Shown in pieces: positions 50,161 through 64,000 of a stretch of DNA of 64,000 nucleotides. This stretch comes from a virus (Duplodnaviria > Caudoviricetes). Within the stretch, counting starts at the first letter, position 1. The number at the start of each line of letters is the position of its first letter. A program made the translations under genes and the position numbers. The notes beneath the pieces are model-generated. The model did no database searches. It had not been told where the DNA came from and worked only from the letters and a program-made list of their open reading frames with translations. The DNA lies in IMG/VR virus record IMGVR_UViG_2654588123_000001, positions 8,932 through 72,931 of that record; one strand, 5' to 3'.

Positions 50161-50344
50161 CCATACCTCCCATCAAAAAAGAAAATTGTAATAGAACAAA
50201 CATTCTACTATAATTATATCATATTGGCTATTCAGATGAAAGTTATCCACAGAAAACAGAAGAATGTAAATGTAATAAGAACTTGTAGTTTTGATAGGCC
50301 ATTTTTTGTTATAATGTAAAAAAGTGCGACAGGAGAACACCACT

Positions 50345-50992
50345 ATGGCAGAAGTGCAAATCCTTAATTCCCAGCACCCCGCCATCCAGTATCTCTGCAA
50401 AAAGGACAAGAGGCTGGCAAAGCTGATAGATATGGTTGGCGAAATTGAATACAGAACCCAGCCTGACTGCTTCGCCCGGTTGGTACGCTCCATCATCAAT
50501 CAAATGCTGTCCAACAAAGCCGCCCATGTCATCGGCGGCAGGGTTGCCGCTCTTTGTGGTGGATCCATAACGCCGGAGAATCTTTTGAAACTTGACAGGG
50601 AACAATTACGGGGTGCCGGTCTTTCATATGCGAAAGCCGATAATGTTTTGGGCATAGCAAAAGCCGCTACAGACGGCAGCCTCGACTTCTCCAACTTCCC
50701 TACAATGTCGGATGATGAAGTGATGAAGGAACTGACGCACCTGCGCGGCATCGGTACCTGGTCAGCAAAGATGTTTTTAATTTTTACACTGAATCGGATG
50801 GATGTCCTTCCCTACGAGGATGTGGCCTTTCTGCAGACATACGCATGGTTATACAAAACGAAAGATTTGCAGCCGGCGTCCATTATAAAACGATGCAAAA
50901 AATGGAAACCATACAGCTCCATCGCTGCCCGGTATTTCTACTACGCTTTGGATATGGGATTTACCAAGAAAGCGTTTCATTTTATGAAGTAA
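50345..50992 (+). CDS. alkA: DNA-3-methyladenine glycosylase II (AlkA-like, HhH-GPD)
   Basis: IINQMLS.KAA, GAGLSYAKA, LTHLRGIGTWSAKMFLIFTLNRMDVLP.ED, WKPYSSIAARY. Confidence 0.85.
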   Translation: MAEVQILNSQHPAIQYLCKKDKRLAKLIDMVGEIEYRTQPDCFARLVRSIINQMLSNKAAHVIGGRVAALCGGSITPENLLKLDREQLRGAGLSYAKADNVLGIAKAATDGSLDFSNFPTMSDDEVMKELTHLRGIGTWSAKMFLIFTLNRMDVLPYEDVAFLQTYAWLYKTKDLQPASIIKRCKKWKPYSSIAARYFYYALDMGFTKKAFHFMK

Positions 50993-51023: not shown

Positions 51024-52469
51024 TTACAAATCAAGGCCTTCAGGATTCAGTTTCATTTCAGCTAAATATAATCGGAATGCCATCTGAGCAGGAATCAGTC
51101 TGACCTGAATTCTTTGTAGGTCTAAATTGTCTAACATTTGTAAAGACACTGCACCCTTATTAATCACCCTATCTCCATCGGTAGGCATTAGAAAGCAGTT
51201 CCTAACGTACGCAAACTGATGATCCTTTATGAACTTTTGATAGGCAAGTTGATATAAATACTGTTTTGTGACTGATTCAATACCAGGGTGTGCCCTTGGT
51301 TGAACGCCTGGCTCAAGCAAAGCATTATAATACTTTGCGTCAAATATAACGAAAATCTTCTTGTCGTCCTTTTCCACAATAGTTATCAAGTCTGGTATAA
51401 GTGTATCTACAGAAGTCTTTCCCGTTATAGTCCATAAAGGCCTCTCTATTAAATCTATTAGTTTCGAGCTTGGATAATATTCTGGTCTTAAGGGAACCGG
51501 TAACCGCAAAGATGATAAGGGAGCATCTAGTTTGTTGTCCAATATATCCGCACATACCCTCTCCCAAACAAGGCTAAAACTATTAGTGCCAAACATAGAC
51601 AAACAATCTGTATCATACAAACTCCCACTATGAGCAATGTAAGCATAAATAGTTTTAAGCAGGATTTGTTTTCGTGTATTGAACTGAATGTTCAGCTCTT
51701 TTTCGATTCTGCTTAAAATATAGTCTCTATCGCCAAAATCATCTAAGAGCTCATCCGAAAGATTAACTTCTGTAATTTCAAATATTTCCAACAAATCAGC
51801 TTGACGAAGTTCTTTTGATGCAGTAGTCAAAATGCATTCATGCAGTCGCTTAAAGTAATCGTAATTATCTTCAATACGCTTTTTTGTCTGCAGATCAATA
51901 TAATATGGTCGATTATCACTCAAAAACATAAACGTCTCGTTTATGGTTTTATCCCAAAGTATTTCTCCTGATCCATTGTGTTGTACAATATCTTCAGTAT
52001 TTGTATAGGAACCATTTTCATAGTAATCGGTCAGAAAAAACAAAAGCACCGCCAAAAGATTAAATGCATGATCCACGCTTGAGTTATTAAACACTCTAAC
52101 GATTTGTTCTTTTTTATTAAACTTTTGAAGAACCTTTATAATCTGGTGAAGCTCTTTCTTCGGTTCGGAATTATGAAGCAAATACTTGGGATAACACTTT
52201 AAAACACGACCAGCCACTGTAATAACCCCAACAAAGGTTAATACATACAAGTATTCGTCTTCACCGGTTTCAACATCAGCAACCTCAATATCTTCTTCAA
52301 GAAGTTCCGACATACTTCTTTGCGTGTCGGTAGCTCTTACAGCTTTAAAAACACCAAATTCTTTTAGCTTTCGGATTATAGGGACAACCTTTTCTTCAGA
52401 ACATTCAAATATTGCACAAAGTTCCCTTTGCGAATATCTTTTTTGCTCACGTAGAAACTTAGAAATCAT
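51024..52469 (-). CDS. LlaJI-family (McrC-like) restriction endonuclease subunit
   Basis: GEILWDKTINE, FSLVWERVC, TLIPDL...IFDAKYY, VTKQYLYQLAY. Confidence 0.88.
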   Translation of the reverse strand: MISKFLREQKRYSQRELCAIFECSEEKVVPIIRKLKEFGVFKAVRATDTQRSMSELLEEDIEVADVETGEDEYLYVLTFVGVITVAGRVLKCYPKYLLHNSEPKKELHQIIKVLQKFNKKEQIVRVFNNSSVDHAFNLLAVLLFFLTDYYENGSYTNTEDIVQHNGSGEILWDKTINETFMFLSDNRPYYIDLQTKKRIEDNYDYFKRLHECILTTASKELRQADLLEIFEITEVNLSDELLDDFGDRDYILSRIEKELNIQFNTRKQILLKTIYAYIAHSGSLYDTDCLSMFGTNSFSLVWERVCADILDNKLDAPLSSLRLPVPLRPEYYPSSKLIDLIERPLWTITGKTSVDTLIPDLITIVEKDDKKIFVIFDAKYYNALLEPGVQPRAHPGIESVTKQYLYQLAYQKFIKDHQFAYVRNCFLMPTDGDRVINKGAVSLQMLDNLDLQRIQVRLIPAQMAFRLYLAEMKLNPEGLDL

Positions 52470-54694
52470 TGTTTCTCCCTTTCATCAGGTATAGTCGCAT
52501 TGACAGCAGAACTAATTTCTGTGCAGAAAGCAAATATACCCTTTGTTTCAAATGCCCTGCAAACTTCTGAGTATTTAGTCGAATCCACATCTTCAGCAAA
52601 CAAGGAGGAACGCTTTTGCTTTCCTGCATCATCAAACAAATACATTAGAACTTTGTTTTTGAAAGCATTGATAAAAATCTCTGGTATTATTTCAGAATCC
52701 TGTGGAACAACTTTACGCGAGAGGAAGTACGGCCCGAGTAGTTTGTCTTCATTGATTCTAAAACTACTTAGGCATTCATTAATTGCCCTTCTAAAACTAT
52801 TCCATTCAACAATACGAGCATTGTCGTTTTTCCCTAGGGTTACTGTCTTACCGGCAATCCCGCCCTCTCCATCATTGATTCCTATATAAGTAAAATCCCA
52901 TCTCCGCTTGAATGCTGTATCCATAGGGAATACACCCTGATCCGCACTATTCATCGTTGCCCACAAAAACATATTGTTTGGAATGCGTATTTTACTGAAA
53001 TCTTCTTTATCACCCCCGAGTTCTTTCGCGAGGTATTTTTTCATATCTTCTGTCGCCTGAATCGGATACTCACTGACATTATCGTCATCTCTATCGAGTA
53101 ACTGAAAAATATCACCAAAAACCGCTGCAACATTCGCACGATTGATTTCTTCAATAATGAGCAGAAATGGACGAACGTTAGCCGTTCTGCCATTTCTCAG
53201 GGCGTTTACATAAACACGCATGAAGGGACCGGGTACATACTCATAAGTAATCACATCACCAGCAGGTACCGGTTTATATGTGCCAACAAAATTTGCATAT
53301 GCATAATCCGGATGGAACGTTACACGCTCATAATCAGCCTCATTATTTTCACCTAACAATTTTATTCGCTCAGAATTTAGCAAATAACTCTTTCCAGTGC
53401 CAGGAGCGCCAAACAAAATCCTGTTAAGCTCGAAGTCCGTTTTTAGATTTGTCTTATAAACTACAGTACTTTGATCCGTCATACTGTTTTGGATTCCTTC
53501 TGTTGATAAAGCATCAAAATATTTTTTATATAAAAACAGACGATTTGCCCCTTTTGTCAATTCATAGCAGGTAGTCAACTGACCCTCCGACTCTGGCAGT
53601 TTTTCTCCATCAGTAAACTTCATTTTCCAAGAGCCCCGCCTACAATGCGCCATGTGTTCAGAATCATCATAGAAATATGGACTTATAGCGTCTACCATAG
53701 CTATAAGTTTTTCACCATCCATAACGACAAATATATCGGTATTAGCTGCTTCATAGAATCTTTTCATTTCACCCGCTTTTCGAGAAGCGGTTTTTTTATC
53801 CATGCTTGGGTATAGAGAAGCAAGCTTCGTGGCTAATTCTTTTTTGTCAATAGAACCATTCTTAAGGTACTCAACTAAATCATCCGTTTCGTTCCATCCA
53901 ATAGCCACAAGTCCTTTGCTACGCCATTCATCAGCATAATTTCCTGAATCATCCGAGGAGCCTAACCTATAGAAATGTCTAACATTGCCAAACATTTTAT
54001 AACACACCTCACCAAAATGAGGAGCTGGCAATTCTGTATGTTTACGAATGAGATTTAGCTGACCGTTCTTGACGTATTGTTTGTCTTCAGGCTTTATACC
54101 AAAGGCAAGGAGGTAATGATCAATCCAGGAGGAAACATACCAACTGACAAATTTGTCTGGGAAAATCATATGAAAATATTTTTGAACCCACGCAAAACCA
54201 GAAATTTTTCCCATTATTTCGTTCAGAGATTTGTCCAAGGCAGCATATTCCTCAATAGATACAAGATTACTTTTACCAATTAAATCGCATCCAGCAATCA
54301 CTGAATCTCTAATCTGCTTGCCTAGCCTCAGAGCATCCTCCTCCGAAAGCACTTCTGGACTAGAGGGAGCACCAGTTACCCACTGATTGTCTTCCTGTCG
54401 CTGAAATAGTCCATATTTAAAAGAGGACCCTCCTGATATACTGCCAAAATAACTTTTAATCTTAGAATCGAATTCAAGATAATAGCAGAGGCTTGTATTA
54501 TCTCCTTCTACAGACAGAAACATACTTCTCAAAAGCTCTGCATCAGGCAATGCTTTCAATTGCTCAGGACCAAATCTTTCTTGAAATGACTTGTACGCCT
54601 GTTGTATATCTTCTATTGATGCCGAAAAGGAAAAGTGAGTTAATTTTATATAATTTCTTACTGTTTCTGCTGCTTTTACATACAAGTCTTCCAT
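52466..54694 (-). CDS. McrB-like AAA+ GTPase restriction subunit
   Basis: ILFGAPGTGKSY, VTFHPDY.Y..FVG, IIEEINRAN, TMNSAD, DTAFKRRW. Confidence 0.92.
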   Translation of the reverse strand: MEDLYVKAAETVRNYIKLTHFSFSASIEDIQQAYKSFQERFGPEQLKALPDAELLRSMFLSVEGDNTSLCYYLEFDSKIKSYFGSISGGSSFKYGLFQRQEDNQWVTGAPSSPEVLSEEDALRLGKQIRDSVIAGCDLIGKSNLVSIEEYAALDKSLNEIMGKISGFAWVQKYFHMIFPDKFVSWYVSSWIDHYLLAFGIKPEDKQYVKNGQLNLIRKHTELPAPHFGEVCYKMFGNVRHFYRLGSSDDSGNYADEWRSKGLVAIGWNETDDLVEYLKNGSIDKKELATKLASLYPSMDKKTASRKAGEMKRFYEAANTDIFVVMDGEKLIAMVDAISPYFYDDSEHMAHCRRGSWKMKFTDGEKLPESEGQLTTCYELTKGANRLFLYKKYFDALSTEGIQNSMTDQSTVVYKTNLKTDFELNRILFGAPGTGKSYLLNSERIKLLGENNEADYERVTFHPDYAYANFVGTYKPVPAGDVITYEYVPGPFMRVYVNALRNGRTANVRPFLLIIEEINRANVAAVFGDIFQLLDRDDDNVSEYPIQATEDMKKYLAKELGGDKEDFSKIRIPNNMFLWATMNSADQGVFPMDTAFKRRWDFTYIGINDGEGGIAGKTVTLGKNDNARIVEWNSFRRAINECLSSFRINEDKLLGPYFLSRKVVPQDSEIIPEIFINAFKNKVLMYLFDDAGKQKRSSLFAEDVDSTKYSEVCRAFETKGIFAFCTEISSAVNATIPDEREKQ

Positions 54695-54710
54695 AAATAA
54701 TTCCCCTCTC

Positions 54711-55616
54711 TTATAATTTGATAATCCAGTCTGTGTTATGATCAAAGTCCCCATAGAAATCAAACCAATCCTTTTTAAAGCTATCCTTTTTAAAGAACCA
54801 GAATGTCTGCGAATTACACATCTGTTTGCATATATCACCAATTAGACTGGCACTTCTAATAGAAACGCTTGATAGAGTAATAACATTGCCATTAGTATTA
54901 AGTTTAAATAAAGGAGTTTGATTCATTATTTTAAGCCAATCAGACATATTCCTTCTCGCCCGGGTAAGCGCAGGAAGATCTTCTCCTGCATGACGACTTT
55001 GTAGTATACATGCACAGCAAGCTTTTAAATCCGTATGCTTCAAGCAGCGCACGACGTACCTCTGCATTTCATCGAGAGACAATACCGCTTGTTCACCTCT
55101 CTGCCACAGCTCATACAATATTTGCCAAACCATCACAGCCGGTCTAATAAGAATTCCACACTCTTCCTGCATCTCAGTAAATGTATCAAAATTGAATTCG
55201 CGCCCGTAGCTTTCTTTCAATGACGGGCTTAACTGCGACTTGTGACCATTAGGATACTGGTATCTCAAAACCTGTAAAGCAATCATCTCTTCGTAAGATA
55301 TTCGATGCGACAAATAAGCCATTGCAACAGGAGTTAATCTGATAACCTTCGAGATACGCGTGGAGTAAATCATGCCAAATTCACTCAAGATTTGCTGATA
55401 ATCTCTCCAAGCATCAACTTGGTTGCTGTCAGCCCGTACATTCATAGTTAGAATCCCATTTTGAACCAAATATTCGTTGATGATTTCTGCTTTAACCTCT
55501 TCACTATTGCAAAGAAGGCAAGCATTTAGCAAACCATCCACAACATCTTTGGAAAGTACCCCTGCGTGTTGTGTTATCGGCCAAGAGAGGCCATCATAAG
55601 GAATATCAGGATACAT
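54711..55616 (-). CDS. Third RM subunit (probable DNA-recognition protein)
   Basis: In-operon between the MTases and McrB; LRYQYPN...GILIRP resembles winged-helix recognition domains of type IIS enzymes; no clear catalytic motif. Confidence 0.55.
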   Translation of the reverse strand: MYPDIPYDGLSWPITQHAGVLSKDVVDGLLNACLLCNSEEVKAEIINEYLVQNGILTMNVRADSNQVDAWRDYQQILSEFGMIYSTRISKVIRLTPVAMAYLSHRISYEEMIALQVLRYQYPNGHKSQLSPSLKESYGREFNFDTFTEMQEECGILIRPAVMVWQILYELWQRGEQAVLSLDEMQRYVVRCLKHTDLKACCACILQSRHAGEDLPALTRARRNMSDWLKIMNQTPLFKLNTNGNVITLSSVSIRSASLIGDICKQMCNSQTFWFFKKDSFKKDWFDFYGDFDHNTDWIIKL

Positions 55617-56655
55617 TTTGCTCCTCCAAAACTTTTCCTATTGCAGTCAGAATTTCGTAAGCTAACAACGGTGGAACTGCATTTCCCACTTGACGATACT
55701 GCTCTGTCCTCGACCCCAAAAAAACATACCAATCAGGAAAACTTTGCAAACGAGCAGTTTCTCTCACAGTTAAAGCTCTTGGCTCATATGGATGAATAAA
55801 CGGTCTTGCTCCACCAGCTGATGATCCAATCATAACTGTACCAGACGGCATTTCCGGCCTTAATTTATCTGAATAAGAGCCCCTATCTCTTCCACCTTGC
55901 GGAACTGCAGCAAACCGTTTCTTAACAGTTTCTGTATGAACTCTTATCACCTGGTTCGGTAATTCCTTTATGTTTTCTAAGGCATACTTGCTTGGCATTT
56001 TATCTGTCAGTTGATTTTGATATACACCCGTCGCTTTTTCCGGAAAAGCAAAAGAATCGCAATACACATCAGGCCTAAAACCCACTATGAAGATTCTTTC
56101 TCTTTCTTGTGGGATGCCAAAGTCGGCAGCATTTAGTTTGGTCTTAAAAATCTGGTATCCCGTTTCTTTTTCAATAAACGCAAGCAGGTTGCTAAAATCC
56201 TTTCCATGATTCACGGTCATTAAGCCCGGAACATTTTCAAACAAAAACGCTTTTGGTCTTAAGCCAGAAACAAGCTGAAAATATTTAATTGTCAATCTTC
56301 CTCTCGGGTCGTCCAAAGATTTCCGTTTCCCCATGATGCTGAATGCCTGACAGGGAGGACCCGCAATAATTAAATCTATATCCCCATCAATATTTGATAA
56401 AGACCTGATTTTTTCTGGTGTCAACTCCATCGCATCATCGTTATAAGCAAAAACATGAGGTAAGTTCGCTTTTATAGTATCTGTATACGCCGGAATAATA
56501 TCACTTACCAAATGTGTCTTAAATCCAGCAAAGTGGGCACCAAGATCCAACCCCCCGCCCCCGCTGAATAAGCTGATACAGTTAAATTTATACTGTACCT
56601 TTTTACCAAATGAATTTAATCTTTGAAGATATATGTTTGTCTTATCCGTAGCCAA
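55606..56655 (-). CDS. DNA (cytosine-5)-methyltransferase M2
   Basis: LFSGGGG, GPPCQAFS, ENVPG, QERERIF, RLQSFP, GNAVP. Confidence 0.95.
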   Translation of the reverse strand: MATDKTNIYLQRLNSFGKKVQYKFNCISLFSGGGGLDLGAHFAGFKTHLVSDIIPAYTDTIKANLPHVFAYNDDAMELTPEKIRSLSNIDGDIDLIIAGPPCQAFSIMGKRKSLDDPRGRLTIKYFQLVSGLRPKAFLFENVPGLMTVNHGKDFSNLLAFIEKETGYQIFKTKLNAADFGIPQERERIFIVGFRPDVYCDSFAFPEKATGVYQNQLTDKMPSKYALENIKELPNQVIRVHTETVKKRFAAVPQGGRDRGSYSDKLRPEMPSGTVMIGSSAGGARPFIHPYEPRALTVRETARLQSFPDWYVFLGSRTEQYRQVGNAVPPLLAYEILTAIGKVLEEQNVS

Positions 56656-56674
56656 AATACTCTCTCCTTAATTA

Positions 56675-57682
56675 TTAGTTAATTGCCTTATCAATATCCT
56701 GAATTATTGATGAAATCACAGGTGGACATACGGCATTAGCTAATTGTTTAGCAGCATCAGTTCTGGAAACTGCTGTAAAATCAAATGAATCCGGAAAGCC
56801 CATAATCCGTTTCATTTCGTTGATACTTAAATGGCGGCGTTCTTTAGATAATACCGGAATATGGGCTCCACCTCCTGAATTCAAAACTGTAAGCGTTGGT
56901 AGCGGAGCATCAATAGAGAGCGCTCTTACTCCACTAGACCTAACTTGAAACACACAATCTTCTAAATCACAATTAGTTGCAATCCGTTCTAAGCTTCTTC
57001 TACTTTTAGGGACTTCAAATGACATTTCTTCTATTGGCTTTTTGCCTAGATAGTAGTCAATATATTCTTCCCATCTCTTTGTGATTGGAATTGAATAATC
57101 TCCTTGTATGATAAACGGTCTGAAAGCAGTTCTTCCAGTCCGCTTTTCAGTAAAATCAATTGTTTTATTTCCATAAGCATCAGACCTTAGTGCGACAATA
57201 TATATCCTAGATCTGCTTTGTGGGACGCCAAAGTATGAGCTGTCAAGTATTTTGGCAGACAAAGTATATCCTCGCATTCTAAGGCTATCAGTGATTACTT
57301 TATAAGTGTTTCCCTTATCATGCCGAATCAGATTGGGAACATTTTCCAAAAAAACAACCTTTGGCTTTTTTACTTCAATAAGAGACAAGAGCTTGAAAAA
57401 TACTGTTCCACGTTCATCATTAAACCCAAGTTCTTTTCCTGCAGCCGAAAAAGGCTGACAAGGAAAACCGGAACAGAACATATCGAAATCAGGAAGTCTG
57501 TCTGGCTGAATATCAAATATGTCCTTTGAGTCAAATTTCCTTCCAAAATTTGCAATATATGTTTTCTCGCAGTTATTATCTATTTCATTGGCGTATACGA
57601 GTTCAGCCTCTACTCCAGATTGTTCTATTCCAAGTCTAAACCCACCGACACCGGTACAAAACTCGGCATACTTCAACGGCAT
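56675..57682 (-). CDS. DNA (cytosine-5)-methyltransferase M1
   Basis: FCTGVGG, GFPCQPFS, ENVPN, QSRSRIY, MGFP, NAVCP. Confidence 0.95.
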   Translation of the reverse strand: MPLKYAEFCTGVGGFRLGIEQSGVEAELVYANEIDNNCEKTYIANFGRKFDSKDIFDIQPDRLPDFDMFCSGFPCQPFSAAGKELGFNDERGTVFFKLLSLIEVKKPKVVFLENVPNLIRHDKGNTYKVITDSLRMRGYTLSAKILDSSYFGVPQSRSRIYIVALRSDAYGNKTIDFTEKRTGRTAFRPFIIQGDYSIPITKRWEEYIDYYLGKKPIEEMSFEVPKSRRSLERIATNCDLEDCVFQVRSSGVRALSIDAPLPTLTVLNSGGGAHIPVLSKERRHLSINEMKRIMGFPDSFDFTAVSRTDAAKQLANAVCPPVISSIIQDIDKAIN

Positions 57683-57737
57683 TATTATGACTCCTCCTTA
57701 TTGATAATGCCAATAAAAACAAGAATGTTAAGTTCGG

Positions 57738-58136
57738 TCATCTCTGCTTTCGTATTGTTTCAATCACAGTTGCTACGCATCCATCTAAGTCATCTCGGAT
57801 TTCGCTTTCCCAAAACCGCAGAACAGTCCAACCTTCATCACGCAACCGAATTGTATATTCTAAATCGCGCTCCTGATTCCTCTTAATCTTCTCGTTCCAG
57901 AAACGCTCATGGCTTTTAACACCATGATAACTTTTGCCGTGCCAAAAGTCGCCGTCGCAGAATATTACAAGGCGATACTTTTTTATTGCGACGTCTGGAG
58001 AACCTAGTATGGATTTAACATTCTTCCTAAAACGTATATTCTTGCGCCACAACGCTTTGCGAAACATTATTTCAATAGATGTATCTGACCTGGTATTTCC
58101 TTGCATTGTTTTTCGTATCGCTTCAGTCCTATCCAA
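57738..58136 (-). CDS. vsr: Very short patch repair endonuclease
   Basis: DTSIE..FRKALW, GSPD, IFCDGDFWHG, NQERD, GWTVLRFWE. Confidence 0.93.
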   Translation of the reverse strand: MDRTEAIRKTMQGNTRSDTSIEIMFRKALWRKNIRFRKNVKSILGSPDVAIKKYRLVIFCDGDFWHGKSYHGVKSHERFWNEKIKRNQERDLEYTIRLRDEGWTVLRFWESEIRDDLDGCVATVIETIRKQR

Positions 58137-59262
58137 TCGGAGCCACTTCCTCTAATGTTAATTCCCCGTCATAGCTGCGGTACTGTACCAGACGGAGGTT
58201 TGTCCATGTTGAGTGCTTTACGGGGCGTAGACCGGTGATGTATTGCCGGACCGCCCATTTGTTGCGTTCCTCAATCACATCATCTGGGAACCCGTATGCG
58301 ATTATGAACGCTTCTATCATTCCGTAGTCATCATTGGCATACTCTTTCCGAACCCAGTCCACATATTTCATAACTTGCCAAATGACTTCCTTCGTAGCAT
58401 TGTCCTTCTTCAGTTCTATAATCAGGAATTTTGATTTTGTCTTATACCCCTTGATGTACCGGTAGCCAAAAACGTCGATTTTATCCATATAATCAACCGG
58501 CTTAAACGGGGATGCTATAACCTGGTGGGAGATATAGTCCCATTCTCCTAAAACAGTATTGCCGTTAGTCGCCAACGTATCTACAACGGCAGCCTCCAAC
58601 GCCATCTCATGCCGAACCCATCCCTCTGCGGTATCAACGGATTTAAGGATGTTTTTGCAGTGAAAATGATAAGGGCTTAAATCTGTGCATTCAAGTTTCT
58701 CAATAAAAGACGGGTCATGAGGAAGATAGTTGTTCTGTTTAACAAGATTATCTTCATTCCTTTTCAGTATGATATCGTATAAGGCTTTGTTTTCTTCATC
58801 GCCCATCTTGATAAACGATACTTTCCACATCGCCCGGAGAATACGAAAGGCCTGGGGATTGCTGTTCAGGGCCTCATCCATGTCCACCCCTTCGGTGAAG
58901 AACAGGGGTGACGGCTTGAACACACAGAAACAACGGCTATATTCCTGATCGTAAGGCAACAAAGGTCGTGCTTCTTCAAGATCCGCCCCAGACAAGTTCT
59001 TTGGTAAGTCAGCGCCGATATGCGAAAGGAACTTACAATCACCCTGGATATCCACCAACTCGCCAATTCCGTAGATGATTCGGTCATTGAAAAAATAAAT
59101 GTTGTCGCCCGGTTTCATCGAAAGGTAATCAGCGAATGTAGCTTCCTTTGCGATGCCAAAATAGGAACCTCTCAACTTTGGAAACCATGTACTATAAATC
59201 CCATCTTTTACGCACGATTCAATGGATCCCCAATTGCTCATATTCATCAAATAGCCGGCCAT
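58129..59262 (-). CDS. EVE/PUA-like domain + PD-(D/E)xK (NucS/Mrr-like) nuclease
   Basis: N-terminal MKPGDNIYFF...IYGIGE; C-terminal KIDVFG...IIELKK...QVMKYVDW. Confidence 0.65.
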   Translation of the reverse strand: MAGYLMNMSNWGSIESCVKDGIYSTWFPKLRGSYFGIAKEATFADYLSMKPGDNIYFFNDRIIYGIGELVDIQGDCKFLSHIGADLPKNLSGADLEEARPLLPYDQEYSRCFCVFKPSPLFFTEGVDMDEALNSNPQAFRILRAMWKVSFIKMGDEENKALYDIILKRNEDNLVKQNNYLPHDPSFIEKLECTDLSPYHFHCKNILKSVDTAEGWVRHEMALEAAVVDTLATNGNTVLGEWDYISHQVIASPFKPVDYMDKIDVFGYRYIKGYKTKSKFLIIELKKDNATKEVIWQVMKYVDWVRKEYANDDYGMIEAFIIAYGFPDDVIEERNKWAVRQYITGLRPVKHSTWTNLRLVQYRSYDGELTLEEVAPIG

Positions 59263-59318
59263 GATACTCTCCTTGATTTAAGAATAACAACGGTTTATTG
59301 CAACACAAGCAAAGAATT

Positions 59319-59750
59319 CTACCCGTTATAATCACTTAATACAATTTCATCTTCTGTTTTGGGAGCATTAACTCTATGACAAAAACAACCATGCTTATTA
59401 GTTGCCAAAGCTTGAAGTTCCGTTTTAGGGATAAGTATATTTACAGGACCTTCTCTTAAATTTTTATAACTATATGTAAACCAATAACCGTTCTTTTCGT
59501 CAGTTGTGCATTTCTTTTCTCTCATCATCTTAGCCTGTTCATAAAGACAGGTTTTATCTAATCCCTTATTTTCCAAATACTTAATCAGCCTTTCTTTTTG
59601 TATAAAGCAGCAAGTTATGTATTCAACATCTTCAATTTGAGCCGTTTCATAATACCTAGTCCAGCCCTTTTCTTGCGGCGGATACTTCTTCTCGTTAGCA
59701 TGAACCCATATTAATATATAATAATCTGTCAACATACCATCTTTAATCAA
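59319..59750 (-). CDS. Hypothetical protein
   Basis: 143-aa AT-rich ORF co-oriented with the RM operon; start uncertain. Confidence 0.65.
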   Translation of the reverse strand: MIKDGMLTDYYILIWVHANEKKYPPQEKGWTRYYETAQIEDVEYITCCFIQKERLIKYLENKGLDKTCLYEQAKMMREKKCTTDEKNGYWFTYSYKNLREGPVNILIPKTELQALATNKHGCFCHRVNAPKTEDEIVLSDYNG

Positions 59751-59897
59751 CCAGCCTGGATTTCCGTCCGTCCCTGTAATCTCAAACGCAAAAGTATTGA
59801 GTTTAGAATTAATATAATGAGCCGCACACTTCTCATCAATATAAAATAATTATATAACATTTACACATAATTGAAAATAAATAAGGAACAAGAAATA

Positions 59898-61127
59898 ATG
59901 AAAGATATCACTGTAGCAGAACTGTTCGCCGGTGTAGGAGGGTTCCGCATCGGGCTTGAAAAAGCTTCTACCTGCTTCCGAACAATCTGGGCGAACCAAT
60001 GGGAACCAGGAAAAAAGGTTCAGTATGCATTTGACTGTTATGACAAGCACTTCGGCCCGTCATTGACGAACAGCAACGAAGATATAGCTATAGCAAAAAA
60101 GGACTGTCCTGCCGTAGACCTGCTGGTAGGCGGCTTCCCTTGCCAAGATTACTCCGTGGCACATTCAGGCGGAGCCAAAGGCATCGAAGGGAAAAAAGGT
60201 GTGCTGTGGTGGTACATCAACGATATCATCAGCGAACGTAAACCGGATTATGTCCTGCTTGAGAATGTCGATAGGCTCCTAAAATCACCTGCAAAACAAC
60301 GCGGCAGAGACTTTGCCATCATCCTGCGCTGCCTATACGACCAAGGATATTATGCAGAATGGCGTGTTATCAACGCTGCTGAATATGGCTATCCCCAACG
60401 TCGGCGACGTATATTCATCTTTGCAGCAAGGAAGACCACCAAATGGTACTCGGCCGTCATCAAATCAGCGGATGAGAGCGTCAGAAGCGTGATGTACAAG
60501 ACCGGTTTCTTCGCCGACCAGTTCAAAGTCAGGGGCAATGACATCGTCCATGAATTTGACTTGAAAACGAAGGCCGACGGAAACGACTACATCGACCTTG
60601 TTGATATTTCCAATAATTTCAAAGCAGAATTTGAAAACACGGGCCTTATGTTGAACGGCAGGGTCTACACATCCACGACCACTCCATACCCGCATAAACA
60701 AAAGACCCTGGCGGATATAGTGGAATCCGATGGTGTGGATGATAAGTATTTCTTAGGCGACAATCTTGCCAAATGGGAATACATGAAAGGTGCGAAGAAA
60801 ATCGAGCGCACCGCCGCCAACGGCCACAGCTATACGTTCTCTGAAGGACCCATCGCCTTCCCGGATCCGTTGGACAGGCCGAGCCGTACCATGCTCACCA
60901 GTGAATCCAGCACCAACCGTTCTACGCATATCATTGCTGACCCCAAGACAGGCAAGTTCCGCTTCCTCACCCCGGTGGAATGCGAACGTCTAAACGGATT
61001 CCCCGATAACTGGACGGATACAGGTATGCCAGAAAAGTTCCGGTACTTTTGTATGGGTAACGCATTGGTAGTACCGTTGATAACCCGTATGGGTAAACAA
61101 CTTCTTAAAATTACAAAAGAAAAATAG
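59898..61127 (+). CDS. DNA (cytosine-5)-methyltransferase (Dcm-like)
   Basis: ELFAGVGG, GFPCQDYS, ENVDR, QRRRRIF, RLNGFP, GNALV. Confidence 0.95.
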   Translation: MKDITVAELFAGVGGFRIGLEKASTCFRTIWANQWEPGKKVQYAFDCYDKHFGPSLTNSNEDIAIAKKDCPAVDLLVGGFPCQDYSVAHSGGAKGIEGKKGVLWWYINDIISERKPDYVLLENVDRLLKSPAKQRGRDFAIILRCLYDQGYYAEWRVINAAEYGYPQRRRRIFIFAARKTTKWYSAVIKSADESVRSVMYKTGFFADQFKVRGNDIVHEFDLKTKADGNDYIDLVDISNNFKAEFENTGLMLNGRVYTSTTTPYPHKQKTLADIVESDGVDDKYFLGDNLAKWEYMKGAKKIERTAANGHSYTFSEGPIAFPDPLDRPSRTMLTSESSTNRSTHIIADPKTGKFRFLTPVECERLNGFPDNWTDTGMPEKFRYFCMGNALVVPLITRMGKQLLKITKEK

Positions 61128-61239
61128 TCGTAAAAATAGTTTTATAATATGTTTTTATCACAGAGTCAAAATAATAATCCCTGCCAATCCATCATTAACG
61201 CGGTTGGCAGGGATTTACTGTTTTTAGGCGTACCGGCTG

Positions 61240-62190
61240 CTATTTTTCAGTTAAAGTGTTATACCAATTGTCAAAATCTGATTTATGGGATCCAGAAATA
61301 TTATCTTTATACCATTGGGAAAACATCAAAAATCTATATTCCCCAGACTGAAACACCTTTGCCCAATAGCGATCAGTTATCGTTTTGTCTAAATCAGCTC
61401 TTTTTTCACCGTTTTTTAATACCCAAAACATGGGATTATTTCTATGAGTAAAATCTTTGCTCCCCTCAATAGAACCATATCGTTTCATCTGTGCTTCTGA
61501 AAAAGTATATCCGCTATTTAAAAGGTTCTCTAGACCAGTTTTTGCATACTCACACGGCCCCAATTCTTTGCTTGGAAGTGGTGGCAAATCAACAATTTTG
61601 CCCTGCTTCTTTTTGGGTTTTGGCTGTGGTTGTACCTTGGGTGGCTTAACTGAATCACTCTTTGCAGTAAAAACATCATAGCCAGTAGTCGGAAGAATAA
61701 GTTTTGCCTTCTTAATCAAATTTTCCATAGCATTTATGTTTTGCTTTGATAATTGTGATATTTTTGGTGTATTCCCGTTTTTTACAACAAATCGTTTAGC
61801 TTCTGAAGCAATCTCATAAAATCTTCCCTCAAGGTATTTTATCTTTGCCTTATCAAGATCACCAGCACTTAAAGCCACAAGTATAATAGCATCATCCCAG
61901 ACCTCTTTATTTGCACCCTTTTCAAAAGTATGCTTTTGATTTAATCTAACATAAATATCTTCAGCCTCTCCAACATATACAAACGGGGCACCTTCCGTCG
62001 TTTCCTCACCAAATAACAAGTAAACTCCCGGAGTGTGCAACACCTTATAGTTATCCGATTCCTTCAACAATTTATGTGGAATCTTATAGACGTCAATATT
62101 CCATGAATCAAGACGGTATTCATAACGACCATCTATAGTTCCATCAAGAAGTGTTACAGTAATTCCTATTGCTTCGCTTTCGCTGTGCAT
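61240..62190 (-). CDS. GIY-YIG nuclease domain protein (DUF4357-associated type)
   Basis: PGVYLLFG...VYVGEAEDI..RL, LDKAKIKYLE, NGNTP. Confidence 0.8.
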   Translation of the reverse strand: MHSESEAIGITVTLLDGTIDGRYEYRLDSWNIDVYKIPHKLLKESDNYKVLHTPGVYLLFGEETTEGAPFVYVGEAEDIYVRLNQKHTFEKGANKEVWDDAIILVALSAGDLDKAKIKYLEGRFYEIASEAKRFVVKNGNTPKISQLSKQNINAMENLIKKAKLILPTTGYDVFTAKSDSVKPPKVQPQPKPKKKQGKIVDLPPLPSKELGPCEYAKTGLENLLNSGYTFSEAQMKRYGSIEGSKDFTHRNNPMFWVLKNGEKRADLDKTITDRYWAKVFQSGEYRFLMFSQWYKDNISGSHKSDFDNWYNTLTEK

Positions 62191-62293
62191 AAGTCGCCCC
62201 CCTTTAGCATTTCTATACATAGGGATATATTATAATTATACCAGCAAATTGTGTTGCAATAAATACTTTTTTGAAAACTGCCATTAAACACAT

Positions 62294-62551
62294 TCAACAC
62301 CACTCTGAAAGATTCCAATCCCCCACCGGCAGCATACTGGCTACCAGCCTGATAAGCCACTGCAGCATGATTTCAACCAGGTAATCTCTCCCCGTCCTCT
62401 TTTGCCTTACAACATATGTATCGTAAACACTTTTACGCCGTCCTGGAAGCCGTTTCTCAACGATATGGTACTCCTGACCATACCCGTCCATTAAAACTCT
62501 TTCAGAAGCCATTTTACGCATTCGGCGCCGGCGTTTGCTTTTCATGTTCAT
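62294..62551 (-). CDS. Small hypothetical protein
   Basis: MNMKSKRRRR...; RBS GGAGG upstream. Confidence 0.5.
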   Translation of the reverse strand: MNMKSKRRRRMRKMASERVLMDGYGQEYHIVEKRLPGRRKSVYDTYVVRQKRTGRDYLVEIMLQWLIRLVASMLPVGDWNLSEWC

Positions 62552-62573
62552 CGCCCTCCCTGATAACCGTATT

Positions 62574-62735
62574 GGGGAATTCTCGTTCCCAATATAGTAA
62601 TCCGGCAAAAAATGAAAAAGCGGAACCTTTTTTTAAAAAATTTACAGATTACCATATTGCGGGAATTTCCATTCCCAATACAGTAAGTCAACAAAAATCG
62701 AAAAAGCGGAACCTGTTTTTAAAAAAAATTCAAAA
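62574..62735. repeat. Two imperfect ~86-bp tandem repeats
   Basis: GGGAAT....TTCCCAATA.AGTAA and GAAAAAGCGGAACCT.TTTTAAAAAA each occur twice (GAAAAAGCGGAACCT at 62614 and 62700). Confidence 0.75.
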
Positions 62736-62737
62736 AA

Positions 62738-63275
62738 AATAAAAGCCTTTCACTGCGGTGCGTACCTAATTGGCAATTAGGGGCTGCCATGAAAGGCTTT
62801 TATGACATAAAACCTGGTTTACTACAGCCCGGGCTTAGGTGCTGCCACTGTTACCAACTACAGTGCGGTATCTACTCAAGGCAACAATAACGTTGGCGCC
62901 ACACAAGAGAAGGTCCCTACATCCGATAAACCAAGTCAACAATGGTTTGTGCTGCCGGTGAAGGTTACGATTCATCCAACGCTACCGCCATCATGCCTAC
63001 ACGTTTTCGTCATAATGGGGAAACCACTGTTTTTAATGCTTTATGGTAAGTCCGCACGCTTACCTGTCACCGCTACTTATGACATGCTTCTTGACGATAC
63101 AAACAAAAGCAGTAGCGTTGCATCGCCGAACGTATATGCTAAAGCATTATTTGGAATATTCTTTACGATGGCTCCGCCCGCCCATCGACCGTTACCACCT
63201 GCGGTCTGCTTTCGACAGATACCAGTATCAAAGGTGGATCTGGTTCTGCGATCGTGCTTGCTAAAGAAGTGTTCC
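62738..63275 (-). ncRNA. Large structured non-coding RNA candidate (about 540 nt)
   Basis: Extended -10 promoter at 63282-63290; at least nine predicted helices; terminal stem plus U-tract at 62732-62800; no credible ORF. Confidence 0.7.
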
Positions 63276-63281
63276 TCATTC

Positions 63282-63309
63282 ATTATAACAGAATAGTACT
63301 GAAATGCAA
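63282..63309 (-). promoter_or_regulatory. Sigma-A promoter of the ncRNA candidate
   Basis: Minus strand TTGCAT-16 nt-TATAAT with extended TGn (TGTTATAAT). Confidence 0.7.
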
Positions 63310-63311
63310 AT

Positions 63312-63378
63312 AAAAATAGAACCTGCCGTGTACCGCATGCGCACCGGAAAACTGGGACGTACGCACGAACAGGTTCTG
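63312..63378 (-). terminator. Long stem-loop/terminator after the lipoprotein gene
   Basis: AGAACCTG...CAGGTTCT closing stem followed by ATTTTT on the minus strand. Confidence 0.5.
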
Positions 63379-63460
63379 TTAAAAATTCAGCTTACAACAG
63401 GGGGGCCCAATGGTGAAACCATCTTCAATTCTCTTACCTATGTGAGTACATTCTCAGTAT

Positions 63461-64000
63461 TTACTTACCCGCGCTTTCAATAGTTCCGTCTTTATAAACT
63501 ATTTTATTTACATAAAAATCAAACTTTAATTTTTCAGCAGGTGTCTCTGCCGCTTTCACTTCGTTATTCATAAATTGGTTGGTTTCCCAGCCACCCCGTT
63601 TATCTGCATTAAAAATCACATACCCATGTGCCGGGATATCTTTATCAATGTCACAATTTAATTTTCTTAGTTCATCACCGAATTGTGATTTAACAGTTAT
63701 GTGAAGTTGAACACCACTCAATATTTTATCGGTATTGTTGATGACTTTAAAGCTCAAGCCAAGGCCTGGCTGTTTCTGATACTGAAATTTAACCCCGAAT
63801 TTTTGTACATCTTCAATTTTAACTTTATCTTGAAGAGTCAAAGCTTTAGGCGCTTCAGTTTTCTTTTCAACTGTTTGTTCAATCTTTTTATCCCCAGATG
63901 TGGCTTTCACATCCTTTTTGTCGTTTGAACCTCCACATCCAGTTAAAAGTCCTACTGTAATGCCAGTTATCAATAAACTGCAAAGCATTTTTTTATACAT
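63461..64000 (-). CDS. Lipoprotein of unknown function (probably host chromosome)
   Basis: MYKKMLCSLLITGITVGLLTGC: signal peptide with lipobox LTGC, then a Lys-rich linker. Confidence 0.8.
   Translation of the reverse strand: MYKKMLCSLLITGITVGLLTGCGGSNDKKDVKATSGDKKIEQTVEKKTEAPKALTLQDKVKIEDVQKFGVKFQYQKQPGLGLSFKVINNTDKILSGVQLHITVKSQFGDELRKLNCDIDKDIPAHGYVIFNADKRGGWETNQFMNNEVKAAETPAEKLKFDFYVNKIVYKDGTIESAGK

What the first reader, a model, noticed from the sequence alone, without database searches (positions are those of the whole stretch)
62738..63275. Unannotated ~540-nt ornate structured RNA with its own promoter and terminator at the prophage edge
Seen in sequence: the minus strand has a consensus promoter (TTGCAT-16-TGnTATAAT, 63282-63309) and a stem plus U-tract about 540 nt downstream, with no convincing ORF between them. 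Complementary segments are dense and nested: a perfect 10-bp TAATGCTTTA/TAAAGCATTA (63034-43/63140-49); GUAGCGUUGG/CCAACGUUAU (62976-85/62887-96); GCUACU/AGUAGC (63072-77/63111-16) enclosing UGCUUUU/AGAAGCA; GGUAAG/CUUACC (63045-64); CGAUGG/CCAUCG (63166-87); ACCAG/CUGGU (63221-44); a GAAA-tetraloop hairpin (63205-19); AAACCA/UGGUUU (62928-48); and CACUGU/ACAGUG (62846-65). Established: large ornate bacterial RNAs of unknown function (ROOL, GOLLD, OLE) fall in this size class and some occur in Firmicute prophages. Inference: this is either a ROOL-like RNA or a new class, next to a defence-rich prophage end.
Basis: partly seen in the sequence, partly recalled or inferred. Interest (0 to 1): 0.85.

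Follow-up and report, generated by a model that had tools for sequence, protein, structure and literature searches.

The report
New structured phage RNA, ~540 nt
A prophage in a ruminant-gut bacterium carries a separately transcribed, non-coding, highly folded RNA of about 540 nt from a family not in Rfam; two of its folded modules mirror linker segments of giant "polyvalent" proteins of rival phages and conjugative elements.

Summary
On the minus strand, a promoter (63309-63282) and a long hairpin with a U-tract (62803-62732) bracket about 540 nt with no coding signal. It matches no Rfam 15 family, so it is not ROOL, GOLLD, OLE or YrlA.

- Homologues occur in 16 metagenomic or viral contigs and in 3 other genera.
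- Base-pair covariation is far above controls: 15 pairs changed on both sides against 3.3±1.6 in shuffles. For the 98-nt three-way-junction core it is 25 of 30 pairs.
- G·U outnumbers A·C 100 to 6, which points to the minus strand.
- Short contigs in metatranscriptomes from four ruminant-gut studies cover only 62809-63259.

The RNA is modular: 5' domain, middle domain with a kissing loop, core, 125-nt stem-closed unit, terminator. The core and the unit are antisense copies of structured linker segments inside giant polyvalent-protein genes; the core follows a PBECR1 RNase domain. In relatives the RNA lies beside Ro60, RtcB or Macro genes. This genome has none of these, and no target gene.

Best reading: a real trans-acting structured phage RNA of a new family. 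An antisense or decoy role against polyvalent-protein genes is inferred, not shown.

The parts
63311..63377 (-). Terminator hairpin of the upstream lipoprotein gene (AGAACCUG...CAGGUUCU plus a U-run). In L016, L025 and L031 the same hairpin type serves as the 3' terminator of the RNA.
63282..63309 (-). Sigma-70-type promoter: TTGCAT, 16 nt, TGnTATAAT. The predicted transcription start is near 63275.
   Evidence: 10 of 12 plus TG. The boxes are conserved and the spacer diverged in L020 and L023. RNA-library contigs end at 63238-63259.
63150..63275 (-). 5' domain (module A), closed by GGAA/UUCC and UUCUUUA/UAAAGAA. It holds the hairpins ACCAG/CUGGU and CGAUGG/CCAUCG and a loop-to-downstream pairing CCACC/GGUGG. 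A second copy with its promoter lies at C23:151482-151732.
   Evidence: Compensatory changes: 63187/63166 (C-G to U-A in L019, U.G in L017) and 63233/63199 in L016.
63034..63149 (-). Middle domain. P4 (63149-40 with 63043-34) encloses hairpins 63127-18/63102-93, 63084-79/63070-65 and 63064-59/63050-45. A 6-bp kissing loop joins 63116-11 to 63077-72.
   Evidence: helices 2-6: 7 pairs changed on both sides and 97-100% of cells paired.
62936..63033 (-). Three-way-junction core: P1 63029-21/62948-40; P2 63020-11/62995-85; P3 62982-71/62962-51. Loop sequences are conserved. On the plus strand it is the antisense of the linker that follows a PBECR1 domain in polyvalent proteins.
   Evidence: Covariance model R1. 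Hits in 3 other genera. 25 of 30 pairs covary. PBECR1 context.
62811..62937 (-). 125-nt 'unit' closed by a 12-bp stem (62937-26 with 62822-11), with inner hairpins 62865-60/62851-46 and 62845-38/62830-24. Relatives have 1-3 tandem copies. The plus strand is 88% identical over 119 nt to a linker-coding segment of a 2546-aa LPD1 polyvalent protein.
62732..62803 (-). Intrinsic terminator: a long hairpin with an inner hairpin, then U8. It belongs to a terminator family also found at C23:117486, C33:16545, C39:11693 and C26:73669.
62562..62726 (-). Two tandem ~80-nt repeats, each with the palindrome GGGAAU-N4-AUUCCC. They are a likely promoter and operator region for the downstream small basic protein gene (62548-62294). 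This is context, not part of the RNA.

Best explanation
This is an independent, non-coding transcription unit of the prophage (a 'moron'). It makes a stable, heavily folded RNA of about 540 nt from the minus strand, starting near 63275 and ending at the terminator 62803-62732. It belongs to an undescribed, modular family of phage RNAs from ruminant-gut bacteria.

Shown:
- own conserved promoter and terminator;
- no coding signal;
- at least 12 helices, one a kissing loop, kept by compensatory changes;
- a 98-nt three-way-junction core conserved across genera;
- presence in RNA libraries as short contigs confined to the element.

Also shown: the core and the 125-nt unit are antisense counterparts of structured linker segments inside giant polyvalent-protein genes of phages and conjugative elements. 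The core follows a PBECR1 RNase domain.

Inferred mechanism: the RNA acts in trans in conflicts between mobile elements. Its folded modules would meet the mirror-image stem-loops of incoming polyvalent-protein mRNAs through loop-loop contacts and silence them, or act as decoys for their RNase domains. Related phages place the RNA beside RNA-repair genes (Ro60, RtcB, Macro), which would counter the same RNases.

I put about 0.8 on 'real functional structured RNA of a new family' and about 0.25-0.3 on the antisense or decoy mechanism in particular.
For: - Promoter and terminator, and their conservation pattern.
- Non-coding.
- Selection on the transcript body: only 2 substitutions in ~480 nt against viral contig L020, while the flanks have diverged.
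- Covariation on 63150-62805: 98% of cells paired; 15 pairs changed on both sides against 3.3±1.6 in shuffles (0 of 500 reach it); slid controls give 0-4.
- Strand: 100 G.U cells against 6 A.C cells.
- Core model R1 finds full-length matches of 67-87 bits in three other genera. On that alignment 25 of 30 pairs change on both sides against 11.3±2.2 in shuffles.
- RNA libraries: six metatranscriptome runs from five studies hold 54-61% of the sampled words, against 75-98% in DNA runs. Contigs of 235-612 nt from four studies cover 62809-63259 (one reaches 63367) and not the flanking genes.
- Antisense relation: the unit is 88% identical over 119 nt, with a 34-nt exact run, to L040:4687-4805 inside a 2546-aa LPD1 protein. 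The core lies inside ORFs on the opposite strand in L051, L050 and L049, directly after PBECR1.
- The unit's closing stem differs in sequence but stays complementary in the window, L040 and L015.
- RNA-repair neighbours in relatives: TROVE/Ro60 (L031), RtcB (L026), Macro plus a gene that reads as Ro60 by similarity to the L031 protein but was not scanned against Pfam (L025).
Against: - The strand of the transcript is not shown directly. The runs were contigs, and one RNA contig crosses the promoter (62956-63367).
- Only about 6-8 independent lineages carry the covariation. The structure was partly derived from the window sequence, and alignment A6 is fitted to the model.
- No polyvalent or PBECR gene, and no Ro60 or RtcB, exists in this genome. 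A target or partner would have to come from outside.
- The mosaic make-up and the similarity to gene fragments also fit a decayed gene remnant.
- Core complementarity to the known gene copies is only 74-80%, which is low for simple antisense pairing.
Confidence: 0.5

Rival explanations
1. Relic reading. The region is a decayed fragment of a polyvalent-protein gene on the plus strand (linker, linker, and so on), now transcribed antisense from a chance or moron promoter. The secondary structure is inherited from the gene's linkers, where it serves the gene itself, for example as boundaries for shuffling domain cassettes or as mRNA or ssDNA structure. The RNA would have no function of its own.
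For: - Plus-strand frames still read linker-like peptides: 82% amino-acid identity to P0007 for the unit, and 58% (23 of 40) to the second L049 copy for the core.
- The frames are broken by stops and shifts.
- The region is a mosaic of segments with separate histories.
- In G113 two core copies flank a PBECR-like gene as direct repeats.
- Iyer et al. 2017 (PMC5512222) describe extensive shuffling of PBECR domains.
Against: - All non-coding lineages keep a promoter and a terminator in the same orientation, although these are of two different types.
- The middle domain, not found in any polyvalent gene examined, also shows compensatory changes between the window-type and L031-type RNAs.
- Loops stay invariant in loci where no frame is under protein selection.
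- The transcript body is far better conserved than its flanks.
- The RNA is recovered from RNA libraries of several studies.
Confidence: 0.22
2. Y-RNA-like reading. The RNA, or processed modules of it such as the 125-nt stem-closed unit, is a scaffold that binds Ro60 and works with RtcB in RNA quality control and repair, as bacterial Y RNAs (YrlA, YrlB) do. In this prophage it is an orphan, or it uses another partner.
For: - Homologues lie directly downstream of a TROVE/Ro60 gene (L031) and of RtcB (L026), and near Macro plus a gene that reads as Ro60 by similarity only (L025).
- Bacterial Y RNAs are encoded next to Ro60, measure 80-130 nt with a long terminal stem, and can be cut from one precursor (PMC4201824). 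The unit has that size and form.
- No Rfam Y RNA is detected beside those Ro60 genes, so their partner RNA is unassigned.
Against: - There is no TROVE or RtcB gene anywhere in this 98%-complete genome.
- No match to any Rfam Y-RNA model, and no tRNA-like element by ARAGORN.
- Window-type loci (L020-L024) have no Ro60 or RtcB nearby.
Confidence: 0.15
3. ROOL/GOLLD-like reading. The RNA works as a protein-free self-assembling particle, as ROOL, GOLLD and OLE do, without belonging to those families.
For: - Similar size class, prophage location and rumen origin.
- It has kissing-loop and conserved-loop features.
- ROOL and GOLLD form RNA-only cages held by kissing loops and A-minor contacts (bioRxiv 10.1101/2024.12.08.627333).
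Against: - No similarity to those families in sequence or structure models.
- No tRNA island nearby.
- No palindromic loop pointing to self-pairing was looked for or seen.
- The modular, variable architecture is unlike a fixed cage subunit.
Confidence: 0.06
4. Coding reading. The unit is an mRNA for the 68-aa ORF 63283-63077, or for another small peptide.
For: The ORF stays open in L016, L017, L019-L024 and in the C23 copy.
Against: - The ATG lies inside the -10 box, upstream of the predicted start, with no Shine-Dalgarno sequence.
- About 16 amino-acid changes to 3 silent ones against L016, counted by hand, with no codon periodicity.
- The C-terminus is unrelated in the C23 copy.
- The ORF is absent from the L031-, L026-, L030- and L018-type RNAs, which share the rest.
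- No Pfam match.
Confidence: 0.03

Closest known systems
ROOL and GOLLD RNAs (large ornate phage and prophage RNAs)
   Same: A large (~540 nt), multi-helix, pseudoknotted non-coding RNA. It is encoded in a prophage, recovered from rumen samples and found in RNA libraries. Its function is unknown.
   Different: No match to the Rfam models and no tRNA island nearby. The architecture is modular and variable. Some modules are antisense to protein-coding linkers, which is not reported for ROOL or GOLLD as far as I know.
Bacterial and phage Y RNAs (YrlA, YrlB, Yrn1) with Ro60 (Rsr) and RtcB
   Same: Relatives of this RNA are encoded directly beside Ro60 and RtcB genes. There are several stem-closed modules of Y-RNA size on one transcript.
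   Different: No T-arm or D-arm mimic and no Rfam hit. This genome has no Ro60 or RtcB. At ~540 nt the RNA is four to five times longer than a Y RNA.
Antisense RNAs that act through loop-loop kissing (CopA/CopT, RNAI/RNAII, type I antitoxins such as RatA and SR4)
   Same: Folded stem-loops are complementary to folded stem-loops of an mRNA. The RNA has its own promoter and terminator and is carried by a mobile element.
   Different: The complementary gene is not in the same locus or even the same genome, so any action would be in trans on foreign elements. The RNA is much larger and carries extra domains with no known target.
Modular repeated elements that fold as RNA and can sit inside genes (pneumococcal BOX, enterobacterial ERIC, Rickettsia palindromic elements). 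This comparison is from my own knowledge.
   Same: Modules are shuffled between loci, the number of units varies, each unit has stem-closed ends, and copies occur in frame inside ORFs.
   Different: There is one core copy in this genome and at most two in the relatives searched, with hits in 6 of 140 genomes. That is not a proliferating repeat. The loops are strongly conserved.

Membership tests
ROOL RNA | Match to the family's covariance model in Rfam | tested here: not met
   cmscan of 55000-64000 at E<=1 gave nothing. On 62650-63420 at E<=10 it gave only chance hits, the best being mir-980 at 18.8 bits against a gathering score of 47. That ROOL is in Rfam 15 is my own knowledge.
ROOL RNA | Encoded in phages or prophages, often near tRNA islands | tested here: inconclusive
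   Prophage location: yes. No tRNA gene in C26:70180-73880.
GOLLD and OLE RNAs | Match to the family's covariance model in Rfam | tested here: not met
Bacterial Y RNA (YrlA, YrlB) | Encoded next to a Ro60 (TROVE) gene | tested here: not met
   No TROVE match in the whole genome. It is met in relative L031 (Pfam TROVE). In L025 a gene about 1.5 kb downstream of the RNA reads as Ro60 only by similarity to the L031 protein.
Bacterial Y RNA (YrlA, YrlB) | tRNA-like domain (T- and D-arm mimics), or a match to the Rfam model | tested here: not met
   No Rfam hit in the window or in L016, L018, L025, L026, L030, L031. ARAGORN finds nothing.
Bacterial Y RNA (YrlA, YrlB) | 80-130 nt with a long stem formed by the 5' and 3' ends that binds Ro60 | tested here: inconclusive
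   The 125-nt unit is closed by a 12-bp stem, 99% paired across homologues (helix 10). Ro60 binding cannot be tested here.
Cis- or trans-antisense regulatory RNA | Extended complementarity to a target mRNA | tested here: met
   The unit is 88% identical over 119 nt, with a 34-nt exact run, to L040:4687-4805 on the opposite strand. The core is 74-80% identical to L049, L050 and L051.
Cis- or trans-antisense regulatory RNA | Target gene present in the same locus or cell | tested here: not met
   tblastn of the polyvalent-protein segments finds only the unit itself in this genome.
Dispersed palindromic repeat elements (BOX, ERIC or RPE-like) | Many copies per genome | tested here: not met
   The core and unit are single-copy in G000. 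Only the terminator and module A recur, 5 and 2 times.

The most novel reading that the evidence does not exclude
Giant polyvalent-protein genes of phages and conjugative elements carry conserved folded RNA elements in the linkers after their nuclease domains. Resident prophages express free-standing RNAs built from the mirror images of these elements. These RNAs would recognise and silence, or decoy, incoming polyvalent-protein messages by loop-loop pairing. That would be an RNA-based immunity between mobile elements, found in some phages together with Ro60/RtcB RNA repair.
Probability: 0.2. Interest if true: 0.9.

Novelty: new variant of a known kind. Interest (0 to 1): 0.72.

Why it matters
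Large structured bacterial and phage RNAs of unknown function are rare, and each new class has so far revealed new RNA biology. This one has a clear transcription unit, expression evidence in natural samples and covariation-supported domains.

Unusually, it also offers a concrete lead to function. Two of its modules are antisense twins of structured linkers in polyvalent-protein genes, next to a predicted RNase domain. Relatives travel with Ro60 and RtcB. That makes three things directly testable:
- what such RNAs do in phage-phage and phage-plasmid conflict;
- why polyvalent-protein linkers are folded at the nucleic-acid level;
- what RNA partners phage Ro60 proteins have.

Tried and rejected
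- DNA searches with the 700-nt region found no homologue in 60 relatives, in INPHARED phages or in PLSDB plasmids. Only terminator-like pieces matched.
- Pfam gave nothing on any ORF or open frame of the region.
- Three IMG/VR pattern scans found only L020 or nothing. A looser pattern gave 8 unrelated chance hits.
- DGR template/variable repeat idea for the 125-nt unit: rejected, because the differences between unit copies are not confined to adenines (by eye).
- Hammerhead or other small ribozymes, tmRNA, RNase P, 6S: no Rfam hit.
- Module A as a fragment of a PBECR domain ('KGGSGSAIVLAK' against 'KGGYGISHI..K'): BLASTP gives no alignment and Pfam no hit, so I dropped it.
- RNAalifold on the gap-masked full alignment recovered only part of the structure, so helices were set by hand and then counted.
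- The plus-strand 161-codon open frame as a gene: rejected. Its metagenomic 'protein' homologues P0002 and P0003 need TGA read as Trp, and its substitutions are non-periodic.
- Promoter-like sites directly 5' of the core in the window, L050 and L051 score 9 of 12, which is at chance level. I draw no conclusion from them.
- RNA-library contigs do not cover the flanking genes. That is only a weak hint, because contigs cannot show absence, strand or RNA ends.

Full report
**Setting**

The window is G000:C26:8981-72980, in a 2.54-Mb genome that is 98% complete. Most of it is a prophage read on the minus strand. Positions 51024-61127 hold a restriction-modification island: a LlaJI-type endonuclease, an AAA_5 protein, three C5 methyltransferases, Vsr, and a protein with a weak, sub-threshold NucS_C match that may be a nuclease.

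Beyond the window come a HIRAN gene, an XRE regulator, and then a truncated host T2SSE ATPase gene and a secretin gene. So the prophage ends about 1.3 kb past position 64000, which is about 2 kb from the finding. The secretin suggests the host is a diderm Firmicute. Runs that hold this DNA are bovine, sheep and other gut metagenomes.

**The observation**

On the minus strand, TTGCAT (63309-63304), a 16-nt spacer and TGnTATAAT (63290-63282) form a near-consensus extended -10 promoter. About 540 nt downstream lies a long hairpin (62803-62739) followed by U8.

Between them no frame is open on the minus strand. The plus strand has one 161-codon open frame without a usable start. Pfam finds nothing in any frame.

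Rfam 15 gives no hit at E<=1 over 55000-64000, and only chance-level hits at E<=10 over the region itself. The fold z-score is modest and nearly the same on both strands, -2.47 and -2.37. Thermodynamics alone therefore proves nothing.

**Mosaic make-up**

Within the genome the region falls into three kinds of segment.
- 63128-63377 (upstream terminator, promoter and the first ~150 transcribed nt) recurs at 94% identity on contig C23, where it is followed by unrelated DNA.
- The terminator 62733-62801 recurs at four places. There it ends ~190-nt promoter-plus-RNA units that also have no Rfam match.
- 62802-63127 is unique in the genome.

**Homologues**

A HMMER search with the open plus frame found metagenomic 'proteins'. 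Two of them need TGA read as Trp, so they are frame artefacts, but their contigs carry the same DNA. I found further homologues from:
- one IMG/VR viral contig, L020;
- 11 metagenome loci;
- covariance-model hits in three other genera of the same family.

The core is present in 6 of 140 genomes searched in the family. No homologue was found in the 60 relatives searched by DNA similarity.

Against L020 the transcript body differs at 2 positions in about 480 nt. Meanwhile the promoter spacer, the first transcribed bases, the upstream region and the terminator's inner hairpin have diverged, yet the -35 and extended -10 boxes and the hairpin shape are kept.

Against L016 (90% identity, no indels) substitutions fall 12/15/12 on the three codon positions. 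In the most conserved 130 nt no frame on either strand shows an excess of silent changes, and every frame has stops in some homologue. The element evolves as non-coding DNA under selection.

**Architecture**

Alignment of all homologues shows a modular RNA.
- A variable 5' domain. Module A is found here; other 5' modules occur in L026, L030, L031 and L018.
- A middle domain (63149-63034).
- A universally conserved core (63033-62936).
- One to three tandem 125-nt units (62937-62811 here).
- One of two terminator types.

In L016, L025, L026 and L031 the promoter carries an operator-like palindrome (GUCGCCAUGAUGGCGAC) that is absent here.

**Covariation**

I set a structure of 93 pairs in 12 helices on alignment A4 (13 distinct sequences, 63150-62805) and counted it.
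- 98.0% of cells form standard pairs.
- 15 pairs have changes on both sides, against 3.3±1.6 in shuffles (0 of 500 reach it) and 0-4 when partners are slid.

Examples:
- GGUAAG/CUUACC becomes GACAAG/CUUGUC in L031.
- Hairpin 63084-79/63070-65 changes at three pairs.
- A 6-bp loop-loop pairing (63116-11 with 63077-72) switches U-A to C-G.
- The unit hairpin CACUGU/ACAGUG becomes AACUAC/GUAGUU.

G.U cells outnumber A.C cells 100 to 6, so the fold fits the minus strand.

In module A, two compensatory events support CGAUGG/CCAUCG (C-G to U-A in L019, with U.G intermediates) and CCACC/GGUGG.

A covariance model of the core (R1) found full-length matches of 67-87 bits in genomes G113 (two copies), G071 and G080. 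On the resulting alignment 25 of 30 pairs change on both sides, against 11.3±2.2 in shuffles and 5-10 when slid. The loops stay conserved: GACGAG.AAG.GUAGG and AUCGUAAAC.

Caveats: there are few independent lineages, part of the structure came from the window sequence, and A6 is fitted to the model.

**Expression**

Six metatranscriptome runs from five studies hold 54-61% of the sampled words of 62700-63400. DNA runs hold 75-98%.

I laid four RNA runs from four studies on 61800-64000. Contigs of 235-612 nt cover 62809-63259. Three of them end at 63238-63259, that is 16-37 nt from the predicted start. None covers the neighbouring genes.

One contig is an L031-type variant, at the highest word depth of any contig laid. 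One contig (62956-63367) crosses the promoter.

Contigs cannot give strand or true ends, so this is supporting evidence, not proof.

**The link to polyvalent proteins**

The plus strand of the unit reads a peptide 82% identical to residues 1398-1436 of a 2546-aa LPD1 polyvalent protein. At the DNA level this is 88% over 119 nt with a 34-nt exact run.

The covariance-model hits in L051, L050 and L049 (copy 1) lie inside long ORFs on the opposite strand. In L051 the core is codons 501-533, directly after a PBECR1 nuclease domain at residues 399-497. The window's plus frame still reads the same linker motif.

In these genes the fold is kept by compensation. The unit's closing stem is CUGGUUUA/UAAACCAG here, GAACACUUGA/UCAAGUGUUC in L040 and CACUCGUG/CAACGAGUG in L015.

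In G113 two core copies flank a PBECR-like gene. This genome has no such gene.

Polyvalent proteins are multi-domain proteins that phages and conjugative elements are proposed to deliver into cells along with their DNA; for some this has been shown. Their PBECR domains are predicted RNases that shuffle extensively (PMC5512222).

**RNA-repair neighbours**

- In L031 the RNA follows a TROVE/Ro60 gene.
- In L026 it follows RtcB.
- In L025 it lies between a Macro gene and a gene that reads as Ro60 by similarity to the L031 protein but was not scanned against Pfam.

No Rfam Y RNA is found there. This genome has neither a TROVE gene nor RtcB.

**Interpretation**

The weight of evidence is for a genuine, independently transcribed, structured RNA of a family not yet described. 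How it works is inferred.

Because two modules are mirror images of folded linkers in polyvalent-protein messages, and because relatives carry enzymes that mend RNase damage, I favour a trans-acting role against incoming polyvalent-protein genes or their RNase domains.

The main rivals are a transcribed gene relic whose fold belongs to the parent gene, and a Y-RNA-like partner of Ro60. A ROOL-like self-assembling particle and a 68-aa peptide are less likely.

Noticed in passing
L041:679-884 (= C26:73659-73864, about 0.7 kb beyond the window end); also C39:11687-11892, C33:16411-16608, C23:117423-117549: Four ~190-nt units made of a promoter, a small RNA and a terminator, with no Rfam match. 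The 5' module (GAGUCGUUUCGGACGUU...) is the same as the 5' end of the RtcB-linked RNA in L026. The 3' module (ACGCCCGGGUCAAUAACCCGGAAACGACCGGGAG) recurs in L018 with compensatory changes. In relatives of the genus the modules occur separately.
   Followed up: partly
L011 (C23:151482-151732): A second copy of the upstream terminator, promoter and first ~150 nt of the RNA (94% identity). It runs into the 3' end of a convergent 142-aa gene, so it may give an antisense or truncated transcript.
   Followed up: partly
L016, L025, L026, L031 (for example L031:775-800 on the minus strand): An operator-like perfect palindrome, GTCGCCATGATGGCGAC, overlaps the -35 region of the RNA promoter in the Ro60/RtcB-type loci. 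It recurs downstream in L016, which suggests a shared repressor.
   Followed up: no
L051:1501-1598, L050:1501-1598, L049:730-827, L040:4687-4805: Intact giant polyvalent-protein genes contain nucleic-acid folds kept by compensatory changes in the linkers after their domains. The core follows a Pfam-confirmed PBECR1 domain in L051. The unit follows an uncharacterised domain in L040 that gave no Pfam hit. In G113 two core copies flank a PBECR-like gene like cassette borders.
   Followed up: partly
window 62562-62726: Two tandem ~80-nt repeats, each with the palindrome GGGAAT-N4-ATTCCC, lie upstream of a small, very basic 84-aa ORF (62548-62294). That ORF is conserved downstream of the RNA in L020, L022, L023 and L028. 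A similar repeat lies at C27:427917.
   Followed up: no
C23:117556-117592, C33:16607-16666, C28:1113-1162, C24:132-168, C38:20558-20606, C26:421-465: A short dispersed inverted-repeat element, TATACGATACGGCGAAAATGGAGnnnCGTATA, occurs on at least six contigs, often right after the shared terminator.
   Followed up: no
L041:1332-2102: The T2SSE (PilB/GspE-like) ATPase ORF at the prophage junction covers only positions 3-211 of the 370-position Pfam profile. It looks truncated, perhaps because the prophage integrated into it.
   Followed up: no
window 50324-50992 and L020:19-668: The HhH-GPD glycosylase gene and the RNA are conserved anchors in the related viral contig L020. The cargo between them differs: 11 kb of restriction-modification genes here, about 7 kb of other genes there. 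The stretch behaves as a swappable defence island.
   Followed up: partly
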